NCBI GenBank assembly: GCA_964607655.1
Contig: CAZSKX010000001.1
Location: 6,314 to 70,313 of the forward strand
DNA length: 64,000 bases
Direction: 5' to 3'
DNA from: an uncultured Candidatus Saccharibacteria bacterium
GTDB lineage: Bacteria; Patescibacteriota; Minisyncoccia; Phycocordibacterales; Phycocordibacteraceae
This document shows positions 1-63,980 of this stretch, piece after piece. Positions within the stretch are counted from its first letter, which is position 1. Every line of letters starts with the position of its first letter. The notes under the pieces were generated by a model. It saw nothing but the letters and a program-made list of their open reading frames with translations, was not told the DNA's origin and ran no database searches. Made by a program: the position numbers and the translations under genes.

Positions 1-46
1 CGGGCAGTCATTTACGGCAGCGTCTGTTGGCTGGACAGGGAACTCT

Positions 47-1516
47 GTGGCGATGTCCGGCTCTGGCCAATACCAGGTGGTGGGCCGAACTTCCAGCGGC
101 CACATTTCGTGGTCAGTCGACTATGGTAAGACTTGGTCGGCAAGTGTGAGCTATGGTGGTGGCGGTTCGGTAAACGGGATGGCGATGTCTTCGGATGGGC
201 GCATCGTTGCGGCAGCCCCAGGCTCTAGCACCACTGGGGTATTCATCGGTGCGGCAAATACCTACTACGCGCCGTCTGTCGTGGGCGCCGGATACTTCGG
301 TATCGGCAATACAGCGCCGGATTATCAGCTTCATGTGGGGAACAGTTCCGTTAGTGGCATAGTCGCAAAGTTTCAGAACTCAACAGGGTTTTGTACGATT
401 AGCCCCACCACGACATCGCTCAGCTGTACGTCAGACGAGCGCCTTAAAAGTGATATACAGGCTCTTGCTCCTGCGCTTTCCCAGGTACGCCTGTTGAATC
501 CTGTAACGTATCAGTGGAACACCGAGAGCGCGTCTACTACCGCACACTCAGGGTTTATTGCACAACAGGTTCAGACCCTTATGCCGGATCTCGTCTCTAC
601 AGATGACGCAGGCTACCTGACCCTCAATTACGCAGGATTGACGACGTACCTCACGAGGGCCATCCAAGAACTCGATGCGCGAGAGCTTACATTCGCAAGC
701 ACCACGACCATGCGACTTGATTCGCTCGAGACGCGACTCGCGATGCTTGAGAGTGGTGCGGTCGCGAGTGGGTCGAGCACAGGTAGTCTAAGCGGCTTCT
801 CCACCTCGAGTCTCGTGGCGGCGCTTGGCAGCCTCGGCGTAGAGATCCAGAACGGCATCGCACAGCTCAAGACCCTGATCGCGCATCGGTTCGTCGCGAG
901 CGTAGCGAGCGACGGGACGAGCTCTGCCGCGACGGTGACGATCGACGCGGGTAGCGAGGGAGTGAAGGTGACCAACTCGCTCGTTGCTCCGTCGACGAAG
1001 ATCTTCGTCACCTTCAACTCGCCCGTGGTAGGGAACTGGTGGGTCGCCGAGAAGCAGGCTGGGTCGTTTAAGATTATGCTCTCGTCGGCGCAGACGAGCG
1101 ATGTCTCCTTCGACTACTTCCTCGTCCAGACTGAGGGTCAGCTCACGACGCCAGAGACGGCGACGAGCTCGCCAGCCTATAGCATCGAGCAGATCGGTGG
1201 TGGCCCGGTACAGATCCCGACCGTTGAGCCCGTGAGTACTCCTCCTACGACCGACGCGGGTGGCGATGCGCCTGCGACCTCGACCCCGCCGACGTCCGCC
1301 GATACCGGTAGCGCGACCTCGACACCGATCACCGTGACGGATGTTCCGCCAGCCGACTCTTCGATGACAACGCCAGACACTACGACCGCCACCGACCCTG
1401 CGCCAGTAGAGGAGGCGCCCGCTCCTGATCCGACACCAGAACCAGTACCGGCAAACGATCTTGCGCCAGCACCCGACACGACCACTACTGATACGAATTC
1501 CACACCCGCACAGTGA
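47..1516 (+). CDS. Secreted or surface protein with an internal peptidase S74 (tail-fibre/endosialidase) intramolecular chaperone-like domain and a Pro/Thr-rich C-terminus. The frame is open back to the window start, so the 5' end may be truncated.
   Basis: The segment SDERLKSDIQALAPALSQVRLLNPVTYQWN...GFIAQQVQTLMPDLV...GYLTLNYAGLTTYL matches the S74 chaperone-domain consensus. The 489-aa ORF has a P/T/D-rich tail. Confidence 0.6.
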   Translation: MAMSGSGQYQVVGRTSSGHISWSVDYGKTWSASVSYGGGGSVNGMAMSSDGRIVAAAPGSSTTGVFIGAANTYYAPSVVGAGYFGIGNTAPDYQLHVGNSSVSGIVAKFQNSTGFCTISPTTTSLSCTSDERLKSDIQALAPALSQVRLLNPVTYQWNTESASTTAHSGFIAQQVQTLMPDLVSTDDAGYLTLNYAGLTTYLTRAIQELDARELTFASTTTMRLDSLETRLAMLESGAVASGSSTGSLSGFSTSSLVAALGSLGVEIQNGIAQLKTLIAHRFVASVASDGTSSAATVTIDAGSEGVKVTNSLVAPSTKIFVTFNSPVVGNWWVAEKQAGSFKIMLSSAQTSDVSFDYFLVQTEGQLTTPETATSSPAYSIEQIGGGPVQIPTVEPVSTPPTTDAGGDAPATSTPPTSADTGSATSTPITVTDVPPADSSMTTPDTTTATDPAPVEEAPAPDPTPEPVPANDLAPAPDTTTTDTNSTPAQ

Positions 1517-18652: not shown

Positions 18653-18728
18653 GCCGGGATAGCTCAGTTGGTAGAGCAGCTGTTTTGTAAACAGCAGGTC
18701 GTCGGTTCAAGCCCGACTCCCGGCTCCA
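18653..18728 (+). tRNA. tRNA-Thr (anticodon TGT), CCA encoded
   Basis: GCCGGGA acceptor stem, GCTC..GAGC D-stem, anticodon stem GCTGT/ACAGC with loop TTTGTAA, T-arm GTCGG-TTCAAGC-CCGAC, then TCCCGGC-T-CCA. Confidence 0.85.
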
Positions 18729-58340: not shown

Positions 58341-58378
58341 CTCGGAAAATGCTGAGAATAGGCTAAAATTGAGGTGAT
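58341..58378. repeat. 38-nt repeat element, copy B. It abuts the dnaG start.
   Basis: CTCGGAAAATGCTGAGAATAGGCTAAAATTGAGGTGAT. The ATG of dnaG follows directly. Confidence 0.6.
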
Positions 58379-60068
58379 GGCGAATAGTACGGGAAATGAT
58401 GCAGTAGCAGAGATCAAAGAGCGACTTTCGATCGTCGACGTGGTGGGGCAGCATGTGAAGCTGACCAAAGCAGGGAAGTCGCTGACAGGGCTCTGTCCCT
58501 TTCATAAGGAGAAGACGCCGAGTTTTCATGTGAGCGTCGATCGTGGGACATACCATTGCTTTGGCTGTGGCGAAGGTGGCGATATTTTCGCGTTTATCGA
58601 GAAGGTTGAAGGAGTAGATTTTAAAACGGCGCTTAAGCAGCTTGCCGAGCGAGCGGGGGTCACGCTCGAGCAGTATCGTGGTGTTCCGGCCGAAGACACG
58701 TCAAAAAAAGATCGTCTGCGCGAAGCGATGGCGCGTGCTGCGCAGTTCTACACTAAGCAGCTCACGGGGAGCGAAGCCGAGAAATACGCCAAGTCTCGAG
58801 GACTTAGTGGTGAGACGATCAAGGGCTGGGGCATGGGCTATGCGCCTGAAGGGTGGCGAGGCCTGCTTGAGGCGCTTGCGAGCGAAGGCTTTAAGACCGA
58901 GGAGTTGCTCACGGCGGGATTGGTAAAGGAAGCCGACGGCAAGCCGGGCACGTACTACGATCGATTCCGCAACCGCCTGATGTTCCCGATCAGTGACGTG
59001 ACTGGTCGCGTCGTCGCGTTTACCGGCCGAGCTTTGTCTAAGGAGGAGCTGGCAAAATATTTAAATAGTCCTGAAACGCCGCTCTACCATAAGTCAGAGA
59101 TTTTGTTCGGCATGCATAAGGCTAAGGACGCGATACGGCTCCGCGGCTTCACGATACTCGTCGAGGGGCAGATGGATGCGCTTCTCGCGCATCAGGCTGG
59201 GTTTGAAAACGTCGTAGCGCTCTCGGGTACGGCGCTCACCGAGCGACACGTCGCGCTTATGAAGCGGTACAGTGAGAACCTTATGCTCGTGCTCGACGCT
59301 GACACGGCCGGTCTCTCGGCGACGGCGAAGTCGGCACATTTGGCGCTGCGCGAAGGACTGCGAGTGAAAGCGGTACGTCTCCCTAAGGGGCAGGACCCGG
59401 CAGATCTTATTCTTAGCGATCCAAAAGATTTTGCACTCCGGGTTAAAGAGGCTAAGCCAGTTGTGGATTTCTTCCTCGCGGTATTGGGTGAGAGTGAGAA
59501 GGATCCCCATCGTCTCCTACGAGTGGCGGAGCAGGTGGTCTTGCCGCTTATTGCCGCCGTGAAGAGCCCGATGGAGCGGGACCACTTTGTCCAATCAGCG
59601 GCGCGTACGCTCTCGCTCTCGACCGAGGCGGTGCGGGAGTCACTGGCGCGGTTGAAACAGGAGCCTCTTTCTGACGTCTCAGTGCAGAGGATTGGTCCAA
59701 AGGAGTCCGTGCGGTCATTGCGCACAGTTCGCGAAGAGCAACTCCTCGCCATCCTCAGGGTTTATCCGAATTCTTCACTTGCTAATCATGTAGAAACAGA
59801 GTATAGTCGCATTACTGGAGTCGCGGTGCCCTCGCTTGAGACTATTCCCGAATCCGCCCTATTTGTAGCGGAACAGACGTATGGGAGTGAGCCAAGTACA
59901 GAGGCAGCTCGCGAACTTCTTCACGCCTTTGAAATAGCGGTACTCCGCGAGGCGTATCAAGAAGCAGTAACAAACTTACGACAAGCAGAAGCAGCTGGGG
60001 AGGCGGCTGCCATTCAACACGCACAAGAGCGGTGTTCTGATTTAAGCAAACGACTCGCAATTCTATAA
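58377..60068 (+). CDS. dnaG: DNA primase
   Basis: Zinc-binding [13 protein letters not shown]...[11 protein letters not shown] and [14 protein letters not shown]. 564 aa. Confidence 0.9.
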
Positions 60069-60084
60069 TCTATTTTTAATTCGC

Positions 60085-61314
60085 ATGGCTACTAAAAAGA
60101 CGAAGAAAAAGGCGCCGGTAAAAAAGGTGTCCAAGAAGCCTGTTAAAAAGGCCGTCAAGAAGACGGTGAAGAAGCCTGTGCGTAAGGCGAAGCCGACGAT
60201 GAAGAAGGTCGTTAAGGCCGCGGCCAATAACGCGAAAACAAAAGCATCGTCAGCCAAGGCGGTCACTGCTGAGACTCTTATTGAGAAGGGTAAGGAGCGC
60301 GGGTACGTTACCTACGCAGAGATTCTAAAATCTTTTCCTCACGTCGAGGAGGATGTGAACTTTCTTGAGTCGCTCTACGAACGTTTTGCGACCGCTGGCG
60401 TCGACGTGCTCGAGGGAGGCATGCTCGAGGACAATGCCGACGAGTACCTCGCGACGCGCAATATCAAGGATCGCCACTCGACGAGCTATGACTCGATTCA
60501 GATCTACCTTCGCGAGATCGGTCAGTATCCACTCCTGACCGCGAGCGAAGAGCGTGATCTCGCTAAGCGCATCGAGAAGGGAGACGGCGAAGCTCGCAAT
60601 ATTCTCGCACGCAGCAACCTGCGTCTCGTGGTGTCGATCGCTAAGAAATATGTCGGCCGCTCGGCAGACCTTACACTTCTTGACCTTATCCAGGAGGGTA
60701 ACTTAGGCCTCTTCCGCGCCGTTGACAAGTTTGACTGGAAGAAGGGCTACAAGTTTTCAACCTACGCGACCTGGTGGATCCGTCAGGCTATCACGCGTGC
60801 CTTGGCCGACCAGTCCCGTACGATCCGTATCCCGGTGCACATGGTCGAGACTATCGCTAAGTATAAGCAGGTCTCGCGCCGCCTCGCGCAGGCGCTGGGT
60901 CGTGACCCACAGCCCGAGGAGATCGCCGTTGAGATGGGTGTTGAGCCTGAGAAGATCTACCAGATCGAGAAGATTAATCAGGACACGCTCTCGCTGGAGA
61001 ACCCGGTTGGCAGTGATGACGACGAGAAGAGCACGCTCGGCGACTTTATCCCTGATGATAAGATCCCGTCGCCAGTACAGGAGTCTTCAGAGCGCATTCT
61101 TACCGAGCACGTGCGCTCGATCTTAAACGACCTCTCGAGCAAGGAGCGTAAGATCCTCGAAATGCGTCACGGCCTCGCCGACGGTATCTACCACACGCTC
61201 GAAGAAGTGGGGAAGGAGTTCGGCGTGACCCGCGAGCGTATCCGCCAGATCGAAGCCAAGGCGCTCGAGAAGATCCGTCTGCACGATAAGGCACGACACC
61301 TGAAGAGTTACTAA
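60085..61314 (+). CDS. rpoD: RNA polymerase sigma factor RpoD (primary sigma70) with a Lys-rich N-terminus
   Basis: Region 2.4 [15 protein letters not shown], region 4.2 [24 protein letters not shown]. Conserved dnaG–rpoD order. Confidence 0.9.
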
Positions 61315-61336
61315 AGATTCTATTTATAAAAAGAAA

Positions 61337-61375
61337 CAAGGTGCGGCGTTTCTACGCCGCACCTTGTGCTTTTGC
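61337..61375. terminator. Bidirectional terminator after rpoD
   Basis: CAAGGTGCGGCG-TTTCTA-CGCCGCACCTTG followed by TGCTTTTGCC. Confidence 0.7.
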
Positions 61376-61387
61376 CGTATCGGCGGG

Positions 61388-61663
61388 TTACGAAGACTTC
61401 TGCGTCGTCTGGCGGGCCGATGCAGGCTTGCGCTTTTTCTGTTTCGGCGGTCCGCAGAGGGGCTCGAAAAGAGCATCGATACCCTCATGAGCAGCTGCCT
61501 TGAGGTCCTCCCGCAGACTCTTCGGCGATTTGGCGACCTTGTCGATCGAAGTCAGCACCTTTTTGCGAAGCTTCGGATCGTCCTTGAGCGCCACCTCGAC
61601 CAGGGTTCTGCCAAGTCCCAGGATTCCTCCAAGGATCTTCTCGGCGTCGGTCTGTCCTTTCAT
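61388..61663 (-). CDS. Hypothetical small basic protein
   Basis: ~91 aa from the MKGQTDAEK ATG. Confidence 0.35.
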   Translation of the reverse strand: MKGQTDAEKILGGILGLGRTLVEVALKDDPKLRKKVLTSIDKVAKSPKSLREDLKAAAHEGIDALFEPLCGPPKQKKRKPASARQTTQKSS

Positions 61664-61747: not shown

Positions 61748-63097
61748 TTACGCGGGGAACTCGACGTAGAAGGTGCTGCCGGTTTCAAGCTCAGACTCTA
61801 CCCAGACCCGACCGCCGTAGAGCGTCGCAATCTGCTGCACGTAGCGGAGTCCCAGCCCTGACCCGTCGGTGGTAAAGGCACGAGCATTTTCAGCTCGATA
61901 ATATCCTTCGAAGATACGGTCGAGGTCTTCAGGGGGCACTCCGATACCCTGATCTTTGATCGAGAAGACGACCTTGCCGGGGCTCTGTGTAGCGGAGACA
62001 ATAATGCGACCGCCTGGTTTAGAATATTTAACCGCGTTTGAAATGAGGTTCGCGAACATGCGTTTGAAGCGGTGATCGTCACCGAGAATAGACACCTCGG
62101 AGCTCACTGAAGGGTCGATGGTGAAGTCGAGCGCCTTACTCTGGAACTCTGCTTCGAAGTGAGCCGCAGCTTCTTTGATGGGCTGTAAGGGCGAGAATCG
62201 TTTGGTGACAATAGAGCCGTGTGAAGCCTTGTCGAGAGCGTTGGTATCGAGGAAGTCACTCACGATGAGGGAGAGTTCGCGTGCTTGTTTCTCCACGAGG
62301 GTGATATCGCTCTTAATGCTATCGGAGAGGCCTGTCGGGTTTTTCAAAAGGCCGTCGGCGATCCAGGCGATGCTGTTAAGTGGCGTGCGTATTTCTTGAG
62401 AGATGATCGATACGAGCTCAGCCCTAAAGTCGAGGAACTTCTGTTCGCGCCGACGCAAGACGTACCCCACGAGAAGCATGATGATGATAAATATGGTCAT
62501 GCCGACCGGGAAGCTGGTATAGAAGTACACCGTGTTGAAGTATTCTGAGGCGTCCATGTCCATCCCCATCAGGGCGATGACGTTGCCGGTGGCTGGGTCG
62601 ACGAGAGGGATGATCGCAGTGAGCCATGTACCCCAACGATCCTGGTAGATCGGCTCGACACGCGGCGCGGTGTCATTCTGCGTGAAGGGATCGCGGAAGG
62701 CGCCTGAGCCCTCGTGGTAGACCTGGCCCGGAGGGGAAAGGTCAGGAGAGTCCTCAGGCTCAGAGTCTACGTAGAAGAAGGGCTCGCCGTCGCGATAGCC
62801 GGTGAAGTAGATAAAGCGGATGTCCGGACGAGCAGAACTTATCTTTATAAGTCGTGCCTTAAGGGCGTTGTAGGTGGGGTTAGCAAGGTCGGCTTCTGCT
62901 CCGGCGAGGTTTTGAAGTTGGCTCTGGTCGATGCTGTACGCTACAGCCGTGGCGTTTTCTAGAAGCGAGCGCTCGAGGGTGGTACCAGCGACCCGGTAGG
63001 TGTAATAGGTGGCCGCAGCACCAAAAACAAGTACCACGATAATCGCGACGGTGTAGTACCAGGAGGTATAGTCATGTCGCACTTTCTGCACTTCCAT
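61748..63097 (-). CDS. Sensor histidine kinase-like protein (N-terminal TM, extracytoplasmic domain, HisKA plus HATPase_c). The H-box reads SQEIRTPL, with Gln at the phosphoacceptor position. Orphan: no response regulator is adjacent.
   Basis: G-box DQGIGV, G2 GSGLGL, H-box-like ISQEIRTPLNSI. Start placed at the MEVQKV ATG; the ORF can extend to a TTG at 63151. Confidence 0.7.
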   Translation of the reverse strand: MEVQKVRHDYTSWYYTVAIIVVLVFGAAATYYTYRVAGTTLERSLLENATAVAYSIDQSQLQNLAGAEADLANPTYNALKARLIKISSARPDIRFIYFTGYRDGEPFFYVDSEPEDSPDLSPPGQVYHEGSGAFRDPFTQNDTAPRVEPIYQDRWGTWLTAIIPLVDPATGNVIALMGMDMDASEYFNTVYFYTSFPVGMTIFIIIMLLVGYVLRRREQKFLDFRAELVSIISQEIRTPLNSIAWIADGLLKNPTGLSDSIKSDITLVEKQARELSLIVSDFLDTNALDKASHGSIVTKRFSPLQPIKEAAAHFEAEFQSKALDFTIDPSVSSEVSILGDDHRFKRMFANLISNAVKYSKPGGRIIVSATQSPGKVVFSIKDQGIGVPPEDLDRIFEGYYRAENARAFTTDGSGLGLRYVQQIATLYGGRVWVESELETGSTFYVEFPA

Positions 63098-63140
63098 CTG
63101 GTCATAGTACCGCGTCTTCCTGGGTTTGTATCTTTTCTGA

Positions 63141-63980
63141 GTGACGTACAATGGGGATATGAAAGGCAGAAAAAAGCCGAAAAAGCCGCCTATTGCGCAC
63201 TGGAGCCACTCTTCGCTCGTCTCCTATCTACGGAATCCCCTGGCGTGGCATAAACGCTATGTGCGAAAGATCTACGACACGCCGTCGAGTCCGGCAGGGG
63301 TGATCGGGCGTGCGGGGCACAAAGCTCTCGAGCACTATTACAGCGGCGCGGCGAAGGAGGTGGCTATACGACTAGGTCTTGAGTATCTCCGGAGCGTCCC
63401 CGACTTCGAGATCAACTTTGGAAAGGCCAAGTCGAAGAAGGCCCAGAAGGTCAAGCGTCAGCTGATGGAGAAGGACTATCTTCAGGCGGTCGGCTTCTAT
63501 CTCGCTCGGGCTCCGCGACACAGGGTGATTGGTATAGAATCATCCGGCGTGGTTGAGGTGAGTGGACATGCGCTACCTCTCAAGGCGATTTCAGATCTGG
63601 TCGTTGAATCAAAAGTGTATCCCGGGTATGTCGACATCGTTGACCATAAGTTCGTGGATTCTTTTAGCAAGAGTAAGGAAGCTAAGCCGCTCTTCGCGAT
63701 CCAGGCAATTTTTAATTACTATGTGACCCGTGAGCTTTTCGGGCGACCGGTGGGTCGATTTATTGTGTATGAATGTAAGAAAAAGAAAAATGCGGATGGT
63801 TCTGGGCAGTTAAGACGGTATGTGCTCGACTTCAATCATATTCAAGATCATTTTGAAGTGTTCCGTCGGCTCATCAACGACGCAACGAAGGAGCTCATGA
63901 GCCGTGAGGTATTTCTTCCTAATCCTTCCGACATGTTTGAAGGAGAAGATTCCTTCGATATGTACCGACTGGGGCTCTAG
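63141..63980 (+). CDS. PD-(D/E)xK nuclease superfamily protein (RecB/Cas4-like without Fe-S cysteines)
   Basis: Motifs HWSHSSLVSYLRNPLAWHKRY, GHKALEHYY, SDLVVE...VDIVDHK and QAIFNYY. Divergent from the kinase gene. Confidence 0.5.
   Translation: MTYNGDMKGRKKPKKPPIAHWSHSSLVSYLRNPLAWHKRYVRKIYDTPSSPAGVIGRAGHKALEHYYSGAAKEVAIRLGLEYLRSVPDFEINFGKAKSKKAQKVKRQLMEKDYLQAVGFYLARAPRHRVIGIESSGVVEVSGHALPLKAISDLVVESKVYPGYVDIVDHKFVDSFSKSKEAKPLFAIQAIFNYYVTRELFGRPVGRFIVYECKKKKNADGSGQLRRYVLDFNHIQDHFEVFRRLINDATKELMSREVFLPNPSDMFEGEDSFDMYRLGL

What the first reader, a model, noticed from the sequence alone, without database searches (positions are those of the whole stretch)
61748..63151. Orphan sensor kinase with Gln in place of the phosphoacceptor His
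The HisKA H-box reads ISQEIRTPL, where the consensus is SHELRTPL. The reverse complement shows codon CAA (Gln) where CAC/CAT (His) is expected. The rest of the kinase (N, G1 DQGIGV, G2 GSGLGL boxes) is intact, and no response regulator is adjacent. This is either a pseudokinase or phosphatase-only sensor, or a single-base sequencing or strain variant.
Basis: sequence.
Basis: seen in the sequence. Interest (0 to 1): 0.5.

Follow-up and report, generated by a model that had tools for sequence, protein, structure and literature searches.

The report
Histidine kinase without its histidine
A membrane sensor kinase of an uncultivated, small-genome bacterium carries glutamine in place of the histidine that normally takes the phosphate, and this is an old, selectively maintained change and not an error, which makes it a natural member of the known minority class of "pseudo" histidine kinases.

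Summary
The minus-strand gene at 61748-63097 (449 aa from the ATG; the mechanical ORF runs to a TTG at 63151) is a TM-sCache-TM-HisKA-HATPase_c sensor kinase. Its H-box reads SIISQEIRTPL. Codon CAA (62396-62398) aligns with the phospho-acceptor His260 of HK853.

It is not a sequencing error. An independent metagenome contig (78% nt and 86% aa identity) has the same CAA. All 35 other family members aligned have His, as does every further metagenomic relative with a readable H-box. Between the two Gln-bearing genes dN/dS is about 0.04 (0.017 in the ATP-binding domain), the same as the neighbouring nuclease gene. The N, G1, F and G2 boxes and the ExxT phosphatase motif are intact. The DHp contains no alternative His.

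Relatives usually have a single-domain receiver gene next to the kinase. The four closest relatives, two of them still with His, lack it. So loss of the partner from the locus preceded His-to-Gln. No receiver is encoded anywhere in the 64-kb window.

Best reading: a selected pseudo-histidine kinase that cannot phosphotransfer. It most likely works as a ligand-regulated, nucleotide-dependent phosphatase or binder of a receiver encoded elsewhere; that step is inferred. This is a new member of a known kind, since about 0.9% of HisKA domains lack the His.

The parts
61748..63097 (-). His-less sensor kinase gene. It is 449 aa from the ATG at 63097. The mechanical ORF extends to a TTG at 63151.
   Evidence: ORF list. 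Pfam HisKA and HATPase_c. Identical to database protein P0001, which starts at this ATG.
62996..63061 (-). Transmembrane helix 1 (residues 13-34 in 449-aa numbering).
   Evidence: Hydrophobic stretch WYYTVAIIVVLVFGAAATYYTY within the long N-terminal helix of the AF2 model.
62543..62992 (-). Extracytoplasmic single-Cache/PDC-like sensor domain (about residues 36-185) with the family signature DSEP...SPPGQVY.E...DRWGTW.
62456..62527 (-). Transmembrane helix 2 (residues 191-214). It continues without a HAMP domain into the DHp helix.
   Evidence: AF2 shows one continuous helix from 183 to 252. Sequence.
62240..62425 (-). DHp / HisKA domain.
   Evidence: Pfam HisKA covers residues 243-304 of the 467-aa ORF. 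Aligns to the HK853 DHp.
62384..62398 (-). QEIRT. The Gln codon CAA (62396-62398) occupies the phospho-acceptor His position. Glu (H+1) and Thr (H+4) of the E/DxxT/N motif are retained.
   Evidence: Sequence. Alignment to HK853 H260/E261/T264. The same CAA occurs in L001. Motif roles are described in PMC3510030.
61754..62083 (-). Catalytic ATP-binding (HATPase_c) domain with intact N, G1, F and G2 boxes.
   Evidence: Pfam 97.9 bits. Box-by-box match to HK853. Box coordinates. dN/dS is 0.017.
63159..63980 (+). Divergent PD-(D/E)XK nuclease gene. Only about 60 bp separate it from the kinase start. This is the place where relatives carry the receiver gene.
   Evidence: Pfam PDDEXK_1. The same neighbour is found in L001, L002, L003, L084 and L126. 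In L002 a 140-aa receiver lies between the nuclease and the kinase.
61388..61663 (-). Small gene (about 91 aa from the ATG) directly downstream of the kinase. It is conserved only in the two Gln-bearing loci and its function is unknown.
   Evidence: 74% identity to L001 11481-11741 by tblastn. dN/dS is about 0.32. No Pfam match. Not homologous to the small ORF at the same place in L003. A promoter-like site lies at 61745-61718.
61336..61367 (.). 14-bp-stem hairpin terminator between the small gene and the convergent rpoD gene.
   Evidence: Terminator scan.
58374..61314 (+). dnaG (58374-60068) and rpoD (60085-61314), convergent with the kinase. This is conserved synteny and shows no sign of a functional link.
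   Evidence: ORFs. The same neighbours, Sigma70 and DnaG/Toprim, are found in L002 and L003.

Best explanation
This is a genuine, evolutionarily fixed pseudo-histidine kinase. It is a membrane sensor with the layout TM, single Cache-like extracytoplasmic domain, TM, HisKA DHp, HATPase_c. It belongs to a family found mainly in CPR/Patescibacteria (Parcubacteria-type) genomes.

Shown:
1. The phospho-acceptor His is replaced by Gln through a His-to-Gln codon change.
2. The change is shared by two lineages whose synonymous sites are saturated.
3. The whole protein is under purifying selection as strong as that on its neighbour gene. This includes the sensor, the ExxT motif and every ATP-binding box.
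4. The family's usual partner, a single-domain receiver encoded next to the kinase, is absent from the locus in the four closest relatives. Two of those still have His, so the partner gene left the locus before the His was lost.

Inferred:
1. The protein cannot autophosphorylate on the DHp or donate phosphate.
2. It still binds ligand and nucleotide.
3. It most likely acts as a signal-regulated, nucleotide-stimulated phosphatase or binder (a phosphate sink or sequestering partner) for a receiver encoded elsewhere in the genome. That receiver would be phosphorylated by another kinase or by a small-molecule donor. In this role Thr238 would activate the hydrolytic water and the Gln amide would take over, less efficiently, the water-positioning role of the His.
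For: - **Gln at the His260-equivalent position:**
- **Distribution in the family:** only P0001 and P0002 have Gln and 35 other family members have His. All further metagenomic family loci with a readable H-box have His.
- **Independent confirmation:** contig L001 (Logan SRR30597359) has the same CAA at 78% nt identity.
- **Selection (NG86 dN/dS):** 0.038 overall, 0.064 in the sensor and 0.017 in the CA domain. The neighbouring PDDEXK gene gives 0.035.
- **Catalytic motifs:** the N, G1, F and G2 boxes and E235/T238 are intact. Only three family-conserved positions changed in the DHp (A232I, H234Q, G242S) and only conservative ones in the CA domain.
- **Docking helix:** the DHp helix-1 segment that follows the H-box, which is the receiver-docking region in HK853-type kinases (my own knowledge), is nearly identical to that of the His-bearing sister P0003. 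The two read NSIAWIADGLLKN and NGIAWIAEGLLKN.
- **Partner receiver in relatives:** a receiver lies next to the kinase in L002, L087/L088, L089, L092, L105, L106, L114, L123, L131, L096, L110, L113 and L004. None is found in the window, L001, L003 or L084. The receivers are mutually homologous at 36-45% identity.
- **Order of events:** the NJ tree places (Q,Q) as sister to (P0003,P0004), and that clade as sister to P0005-7.
- **Literature on the mechanism:** in HisKA kinases the H+4 Thr/Asn is the residue required for phosphatase activity, and the His enhances it but is not required (PMC3510030; 10.1101/2025.06.23.661182). ADP bound to the CA domain stimulates the phosphatase (PMC7005713). NtrB H139N, also a His-to-amide change, acts only as a phosphatase (10.1101/122606).
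Against: - No substrate receiver was found. There is none in the 64-kb window. None of the 120 best homologues of the family's partner receiver sits on a 464,554-bp contig, which is the length of the contig carrying this gene.
- HK853 H260A and CrdS H371A have reduced phosphatase activity (PMC5727384; PMC3510030). A His-less phosphatase would therefore be a poorer enzyme.
- The pseudo-receiver preprint argues from family frequencies that phosphatase activity is probably not the main role of pseudo-HKs in general.
- Only two Gln-bearing sequences exist, so conservation of any single residue (E235, T238) carries little weight.
- dS is saturated, so dN/dS values are approximate.
- The NJ tree has no support values.
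Confidence: 0.5

Rival explanations
1. Non-catalytic pseudokinase. The protein signals by protein-protein contacts only, acting as a scaffold or allosteric partner of another signalling protein as DivL does for CckA and PsmA does for DivIVA. There would be no phosphatase chemistry.
For: - Characterised natural His-less HKs work this way: DivL (PMC4211667; description) and PsmA (PMC12963549).
- No receiver partner was found in the window or in the locus.
- The DHp is somewhat more diverged from outgroups in the Gln clade, at 45-47% identity against 53-57% for the His-bearing sisters.
- A small gene specific to the Gln clade lies directly downstream.
Against: [quoted passage not shown]
- The lowest dN/dS in the gene, 0.017, is in the CA domain. 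That is hard to explain if nucleotide binding were irrelevant.
- There are no cytoplasmic PAS domains of the DivL type.
Confidence: 0.2
2. Rewired kinase chemistry. The intact ATP-binding domain would phosphorylate something other than the canonical His. Candidates are a Ser, Thr or Tyr of the protein itself or of a partner (for example the small downstream protein), or the His of another kinase in a heterodimer.
For: - All catalytic CA motifs, and Glu235, which is needed only for the kinase reaction in HisKA enzymes (PMC3510030), are retained under very strong constraint.
- From my own knowledge, there are precedents of HK-fold proteins acting as Ser/Thr kinases, such as plant phytochromes and subfamily-2 ethylene receptors, and the mitochondrial PDK/BCKDK kinases.
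Against: - There is no direct evidence.
- No second kinase is encoded in the window.
- Nucleotide binding is equally explained by the known ADP stimulation of phosphatase activity.
- With only two sequences, retention of E235 is not informative.
Confidence: 0.12
3. The canonical function is preserved through another phospho-acceptor His nearby on the DHp helix.
For: This has been proposed for another kinase that lacks the aligned His, Caulobacter CCNA_03265 (PMC11481889).
Against: - The DHp (residues 223-292) of both Gln-bearing proteins contains no His at all.
- The only His residues shared by both proteins (H313, H342) lie in the CA domain and are not conserved in the family.
Confidence: 0.03
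4. Artefact or decay: a sequencing or assembly error, a recent strain-level mutation, or a gene on its way to becoming a pseudogene.
For: A single third-position change (CAA to CAC or CAT) separates Gln from His. The genome is a metagenome-derived assembly.
Against: - The same CAA occurs in an independent assembly from another sample that differs at 22% of nucleotides.
- Both genes are full length and intact.
- dN/dS of 0.038 equals that of the neighbouring nuclease gene.
Confidence: 0.02

Closest known systems
NtrB (NRII) H139N and EnvZ H243 substitution mutants (engineered kinase-minus, phosphatase-plus HisKA kinases)
   Same: Each has a HisKA DHp in which only the phospho-acceptor His is replaced, by an amide residue in NtrB H139N, while the E/DxxT/N motif and the ATP-binding domain stay intact. 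NtrB H139N acts only as a phosphatase (10.1101/122606). In EnvZ the His enhances phosphatase activity but is not required for it (PMC3510030).
   Different: Those are laboratory mutants with a known cognate regulator. Here the substitution is natural, old and under selection, the replacement is Gln and not Asn or Val, and no substrate receiver has been identified.
DivL of Caulobacter crescentus (natural pseudo-histidine kinase, PDB 4q20)
   Same: It is a natural HisKA/HATPase_c protein without the acceptor His that is retained as an essential signalling component. It is a structural neighbour of the model here (Foldseek hits 4q20_A/B; sequence hit).
   Different: DivL has Tyr, not Gln. It has several cytoplasmic PAS domains that act as the output, and it works by binding DivK~P to control CckA. 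The protein here has one extracytoplasmic Cache-like domain, no PAS array and no known partner.
PsmA of Streptomyces (histidine pseudokinase; Gln at the His position in the S. avermitilis orthologue)
   Same: It lacks the H-box His and is conserved across a lineage (PMC12963549).
   Different: PsmA also lacks the D/ExxT/N phosphatase motif, has an ATP site judged incompatible with binding, and has a variable residue at the His position. It is a hybrid, cytoplasmic, DivIVA-binding protein. The protein here keeps all other catalytic motifs and the same Gln codon in both known members.
HK853 of Thermotoga maritima (canonical bifunctional HisKA kinase) with its single-domain receiver RR468
   Same: It is the best sequence and structure match for the DHp-CA core (E 4e-30; Foldseek). 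The family ancestor likewise paired with a stand-alone receiver encoded next to the kinase.
   Different: HK853 has His260, autophosphorylates and phosphotransfers. The protein here has Gln at that position and no adjacent receiver.
CitA / DctB / KinD / WalK extracytoplasmic PDC (Cache) sensor domains
   Different: Sequence identity is only 7-16%. No Pfam Cache or PAS model matches. The ligand is unknown.

Membership tests
Functional HisKA-type (class I) sensor histidine kinase | DHp dimerisation/phosphotransfer domain of the HisKA type | tested here: met
   Pfam PF00512 scores 34.2 bits against a cut-off of 26.9. The AF2 helical hairpin superposes on HK853, WalK and YycG.
Functional HisKA-type (class I) sensor histidine kinase | Phospho-acceptor His in the H-box | tested here: not met
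   Gln (CAA, 62396-62398) aligns with His260 of HK853. There is no other His in the DHp.
Functional HisKA-type (class I) sensor histidine kinase | HATPase_c domain with N, G1, F and G2 nucleotide-binding boxes | tested here: met
   Pfam PF02518 scores 97.9 bits. All boxes align with HK853.
Functional HisKA-type (class I) sensor histidine kinase | Cognate receiver-domain partner | tested here: inconclusive
   No receiver lies next to the gene or anywhere in the 64-kb window. No close orthologue of the family's receiver is listed on a contig of this gene's contig length. The rest of the genome could not be read.
Functional HisKA-type (class I) sensor histidine kinase | ATP-dependent autophosphorylation and phosphotransfer | not testable with these tools
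   This needs a biochemical assay. It is predicted to be absent because the acceptor residue is missing.
Pseudo-histidine kinase (sensu Collins and Childers, as summarised in 10.1101/2025.06.23.661182) | Histidine-kinase fold and domains, but lacking one or more of the canonical functions or residues | tested here: met
   HisKA and HATPase_c are present and the acceptor His is absent.
Pseudo-histidine kinase (sensu Collins and Childers, as summarised in 10.1101/2025.06.23.661182) | Maintained as a functional gene, not a decaying pseudogene | tested here: met
   Two intact orthologues with dN/dS 0.038, equal to the neighbour gene.
Pseudo-histidine kinase (sensu Collins and Childers, as summarised in 10.1101/2025.06.23.661182) | Integrated into a two-component signalling network | not testable with these tools
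   No partner was identified. This needs the complete genome and interaction or biochemical data.
Phosphatase-only HisKA sensor (works like NtrB H139N) | E/DxxT/N motif directly after the His position | tested here: met
   Q-E-I-R-T, with E235 and T238 retained in both Gln-bearing proteins. The role of the motif is described in PMC3510030.
Phosphatase-only HisKA sensor (works like NtrB H139N) | Nucleotide-binding CA domain, since ADP stimulates the phosphatase | tested here: met
   Motifs are intact and CA dN/dS is 0.017. ADP stimulation is described in PMC7005713. Binding itself was not measured.
Phosphatase-only HisKA sensor (works like NtrB H139N) | A phosphorylatable receiver substrate in the same organism | tested here: inconclusive
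   None was found in the 64-kb window or in L001. The genome-wide search was not possible.
DivL-type pseudokinase | Tyr at the His position and a cytoplasmic multi-PAS array used as the output | tested here: not met
   The residue is Gln, not Tyr. There is no cytoplasmic PAS domain. TM2 runs straight into the DHp.
Single-Cache / PDC extracytoplasmic sensor domain | PDC fold (long N-terminal helix and a five-stranded antiparallel sheet) between two TM helices | tested here: met
   [not shown]
Single-Cache / PDC extracytoplasmic sensor domain | Match to a curated Cache or PAS sequence model | tested here: not met
   No Pfam family matches at E <= 1 for residues 30-190.

The most novel reading that the evidence does not exclude
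The His-to-Gln kinase may not be a weakened phosphatase. It could be a rewired enzyme in which a ligand-gated, fully intact ATP-binding domain phosphorylates a different acceptor. Candidates are a Ser, Thr or Tyr of a partner such as the Gln-clade-specific small protein encoded directly downstream, or another kinase in a heterodimer. That would be a bacterial, minimal-genome example of a HisKA kinase caught switching to protein-kinase signalling after losing its receiver.
Probability: 0.08. Interest if true: 0.7.

Novelty: new member of a known kind. Interest (0 to 1): 0.3.

Why it matters
Pseudo-histidine kinases are recognised, and about 1% of HisKA domains lack the His, but few natural examples are understood. 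The studied ones (DivL, PsmA) have also lost other catalytic features. This one is the cleanest possible natural case:
- A single-residue His-to-Gln change sits in an otherwise fully conserved, strongly constrained kinase.
- His-bearing sister genes are available for comparison.
- The order of events is visible: the partner receiver left the locus first and the His was lost afterwards.

That makes it a convenient natural test of whether His-less HisKA proteins persist as phosphatases or binders or acquire other roles. It also shows how two-component wiring erodes in reduced CPR genomes. The finding does not overturn anything, so its value is as a tidy example and not as a surprise.

Tried and rejected
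1. The genome-contig scan with the family alignment chose the generic N-box as one of its patterns.
2. An exact look-up of P0001 in the contig index found nothing, so the 464-kb source contig could not be read beyond the window.
3. Cluster look-up gave no names or accessions for P0001-P0005.
4. The search for a relocated partner receiver used homologues of the L002 receiver. None of the 120 listed hits sits on a contig of 464,554, 20,047, 8,503 or 3,074 bp. This is negative but weak, since 518 hits passed and only 120 were shown.
5. An alternative acceptor His was rejected, because there is none in the DHp.
6. A receiver remnant between the nuclease and the kinase was rejected. The gap is only about 60 bp and tblastn finds nothing there.
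7. Homology between the small downstream ORF of the Gln clade and the small ORF at the same place in L003 was rejected. It has no Pfam match.
8. A CHASE identity for the sensor was suggested by P0084's annotation. It was rejected, because in P0084 the CHASE domain is a separate downstream segment and the fold is single-Cache/PDC.
9. A functional link to the adjacent rpoD was considered. The genes are convergent and separated by a strong terminator, and dnaG-rpoD is ordinary conserved synteny.
10. Literature searches for EnvZ H243V found nothing in the held library. PMC5218898 (Willett and Crosson 2017) is not held.
Full report
**1. What is there**

The minus-strand ORF 61748-63151 encodes a two-pass membrane sensor kinase. 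The mechanical ORF starts at a TTG. The identical database protein P0001 and all orthologues start at the ATG at 63097 and give 449 aa, so I use that numbering here.

Pfam finds HisKA (34.2 bits) and HATPase_c (97.9 bits). NCBIfam gives only sub-threshold matches to many kinase equivalogs such as PnpS, PhoR and WalK. It is therefore a generic HisKA kinase and not a named orthologue.

An AlphaFold2 model built on a 37-sequence family alignment has mean pLDDT 87.5. It shows these elements:
- TM helix 1;
- an alpha/beta extracytoplasmic domain (residues about 36-185);
- a second TM helix that runs without a HAMP domain into the DHp hairpin;
- a CA domain.

**2. The observation**

The H-box reads SIISQEIRTPL (62378-62410). 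Codon CAA at 62396-62398 encodes Gln234, which is Gln252 in the 467-aa numbering. In the HMMER alignment with HK853 it lies exactly under the phospho-acceptor His260 of ISHELRTPL.

The N box (NLISNAVKYS), G1 (DQGIGV), F box (IFEGYYR) and G2 (GSGLGL) are all present and align residue for residue with HK853.

No receiver domain is encoded next to the gene. tblastn with a family receiver, CheY and PhoB finds none anywhere in the 64-kb window. There is no second kinase in the window either.

**3. Error, polymorphism or fixed change?**

A search of 5.8 billion proteins found a compact family of about 37 full-length relatives. The few that carry names are labelled Candidatus Wolfebacteria and Kaiserbacteria, and one genomic locus is labelled Paceibacterota. 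This points to CPR/Patescibacteria; the taxon of the window itself is an inference from these names.

In the alignment only two proteins have Gln at the acceptor position. They are P0001 (identical to the window) and P0002 (86% identical). The other 35 have His. A metagenome scan for the sensor motif DRWGTWL[TS]A brought in 46 more loci, and every family kinase among them with a readable H-box has His.

P0002 is encoded on an independent contig (L001, Logan SRR30597359). That contig is 78% identical at the nucleotide level and has the same CAA codon and the same gene neighbours. A sequencing error or a recent strain variant is therefore excluded.

Between the two Gln-bearing genes synonymous sites are saturated (pS 0.70) while pN is 0.072. 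The Nei-Gojobori dN/dS values are as follows.

| Region | dN/dS |
|---|---|
| Whole kinase gene | about 0.04 |
| Sensor domain | 0.064 |
| CA domain | 0.017 |
| Neighbouring PD-(D/E)XK nuclease gene | 0.035 |

These values are rough because dS is saturated. Even so, the gene is clearly maintained by selection in the His-less state.

**4. What else changed, and what did not**

Eight positions are conserved in at least 80% of the 34 full-length His-bearing members but differ in both Gln proteins:
- Y120L and A130G in the sensor;
- A232I (H-2), H234Q and G242S (H+8) in the DHp;
- T413S (GTGLGL to GSGLGL), H427Y and L447F in the CA domain.

Apart from H234Q none touches a catalytic residue. HK853 itself has Ile at H-2 and Ala at H+8.

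Glu235 (H+1) and Thr238 (H+4) are kept. These form the E/DxxT/N motif, in which the H+4 residue is the one required for phosphatase activity (PMC3510030).

The DHp of both proteins contains no His. The only His residues they share (H313, H342) are in the CA domain and are not conserved in the family. An alternative acceptor is therefore ruled out.

The DHp is modestly more diverged from outgroups in the Gln clade, at 45-47% identity against 53-57% for the His-bearing sisters. The sensor shows no such excess. The stretch after the H-box is almost identical to that of the His-bearing sister P0003: NSIAWIADGLLKN against NGIAWIAEGLLKN. From my own knowledge this stretch forms the receiver-docking face in HK853-type kinases.

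**5. The missing partner and the order of events**

Gene neighbourhoods of relatives show that the family normally comes with a stand-alone receiver of 128-140 aa.
- It lies directly upstream and co-directional in L002 (P0005, 2-nt gap), L087/L088 (P0011), L092, L105, L106, L114, L123 and L131.
- It lies directly downstream and convergent in L089 (P0016) and L004.

These receivers are homologous to one another at 36-45% identity. By eye the L002 receiver has the DD, D, T and K active-site residues, and Pfam recognises it.

The synteny nuclease, [receiver], kinase, rpoD, dnaG is conserved. In L002 the receiver sits exactly between the nuclease and the kinase. In the window, L001 (Gln), L003 (P0004, His) and L084 (P0003, His) the nuclease and kinase are separated by only 43-128 bp with no receiver.

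A neighbour-joining tree places the two Gln proteins as sister to P0003 plus P0004, and that clade as sister to P0005-7. The tree has no support values. The most parsimonious order is:
1. an ancestral receiver-kinase operon;
2. loss or relocation of the receiver gene in the ancestor of the four;
3. His-to-Gln in one branch;
4. continued purifying selection.

I searched for a relocated receiver using homologues of the L002 receiver. None of the 120 listed hits sits on a contig with the length of this gene's source contig. This is a weak negative. The rest of the genome could not be reached.

**6. Mechanism**

*Shown.* The acceptor His is absent. Everything else needed for ligand sensing, nucleotide binding and the HisKA phosphatase reaction is present and constrained.

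*From established knowledge.* Without the His there can be no DHp autophosphorylation or phosphotransfer (10.1101/2025.06.23.661182). Several further points come from the literature:
- In HisKA kinases the phosphatase reaction uses the H+4 Thr/Asn to activate water. The His helps but is not required (PMC3510030; PMC7005713).
- HK853 H260A and CrdS H371A are weakened but not abolished as phosphatases.
- ADP bound to the CA domain stimulates the phosphatase.
- NtrB H139N, a His-to-amide change, acts only as a phosphatase.

*Inferred.* The protein is a ligand-regulated, nucleotide-dependent phosphatase or binder for a receiver encoded elsewhere. This explains why the CA domain is the most constrained part of a kinase that cannot phosphorylate itself.

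The weak point is that no substrate receiver has been found. In addition, the pseudo-receiver preprint argues that phosphatase activity is probably not the general reason pseudo-HKs exist.

The main rival is a purely non-catalytic role as in DivL or PsmA. PsmA has lost both the ExxT motif and a working ATP site, whereas this protein has lost neither.

A smaller possibility is that the intact CA domain now phosphorylates another acceptor. The small gene directly downstream (61388-61663) is 74% identical in L001, absent or unrelated in His-bearing loci, and has no Pfam match. It is an untested candidate partner.

**7. Comparison and novelty**

The protein fails the defining test of a functional histidine kinase, since the acceptor His is not met. 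It passes the tests for a pseudo-histidine kinase: it has the HK fold, lacks a catalytic feature and is maintained by selection.

It works most like the engineered kinase-minus, phosphatase-plus mutants NtrB H139N and EnvZ H243X. It is not a DivL-type protein, because it has no Tyr and no PAS array.

About 0.9% of HisKA domains lack the His (722 of 76,471), so the class is known. This is a new member of it. It is notable because the substitution is isolated in an otherwise intact enzyme and because the order of partner loss and His loss is visible.

**8. Caveats**

- Only two Gln-bearing sequences are known. A third lineage, L126, is 77% identical over residues 1-211 with the same nuclease neighbour, but it is truncated before the H-box.
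- dS is saturated.
- The tree is a simple NJ tree.
- The absence of a receiver is established only for the 64-kb window and the retrieved flanks.

Noticed in passing
window 61388-61663 (-); L001 11481-11741: A small gene of about 86-91 aa lies directly downstream of the kinase. It is conserved only between the two Gln-bearing loci (74% aa identity, dN/dS about 0.32). It has its own promoter-like site at 61745-61718 and a basic C-terminal tail. It has no Pfam match and is not homologous to the small ORF at the same position in the His-bearing locus L003.
   Followed up: partly
[not shown]
   Followed up: partly
L106 559-1857 and 2001-3332; L114 1962-3260 and 3449-3766: Two family kinases lie in tandem behind one receiver gene. 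The first copy has an unusual H-box context (PIIVHEIRTPLT where the family has SIASHEIRTPLT) but keeps the His.
   Followed up: no
L126 (JACCDP010062369.1) 2-637 (-) and about 700-1500 (+): This is a third lineage close to the window. The kinase N-terminus is 77% identical over residues 1-211 and the same divergent PD-(D/E)XK nuclease lies upstream with no receiver between them. The contig ends before the H-box, so whether it has Gln or His is unknown.
   Followed up: partly
L085 2322-3044 (and L086 2511-3233): In the P0010 lineage the position directly upstream of the kinase, where relatives have the receiver, is occupied by a 240-aa protein with no significant Pfam match. A separate OmpR-type regulator plus a 7TM kinase pair lies just downstream.
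   Followed up: no
window 61336-61367: A very strong 14-bp-stem hairpin (9 G-C pairs) with T-runs lies between the convergent small gene and rpoD. It is probably a bidirectional terminator.
   Followed up: no
window 63098-63158: The kinase and the divergent PD-(D/E)XK nuclease start codons are only about 60 bp apart, so both promoters must fit in this short shared region. The mechanical TTG and GTG starts (63151 and 63141) would make the two ORFs overlap and are probably not the real starts.
   Followed up: partly
window 18653-18728 (+): The only RNA gene detected in the whole 64-kb window is one tRNA-Thr(TGT). There are no riboswitches or other Rfam families at gathering threshold. The window has 56% G+C.
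   Followed up: no
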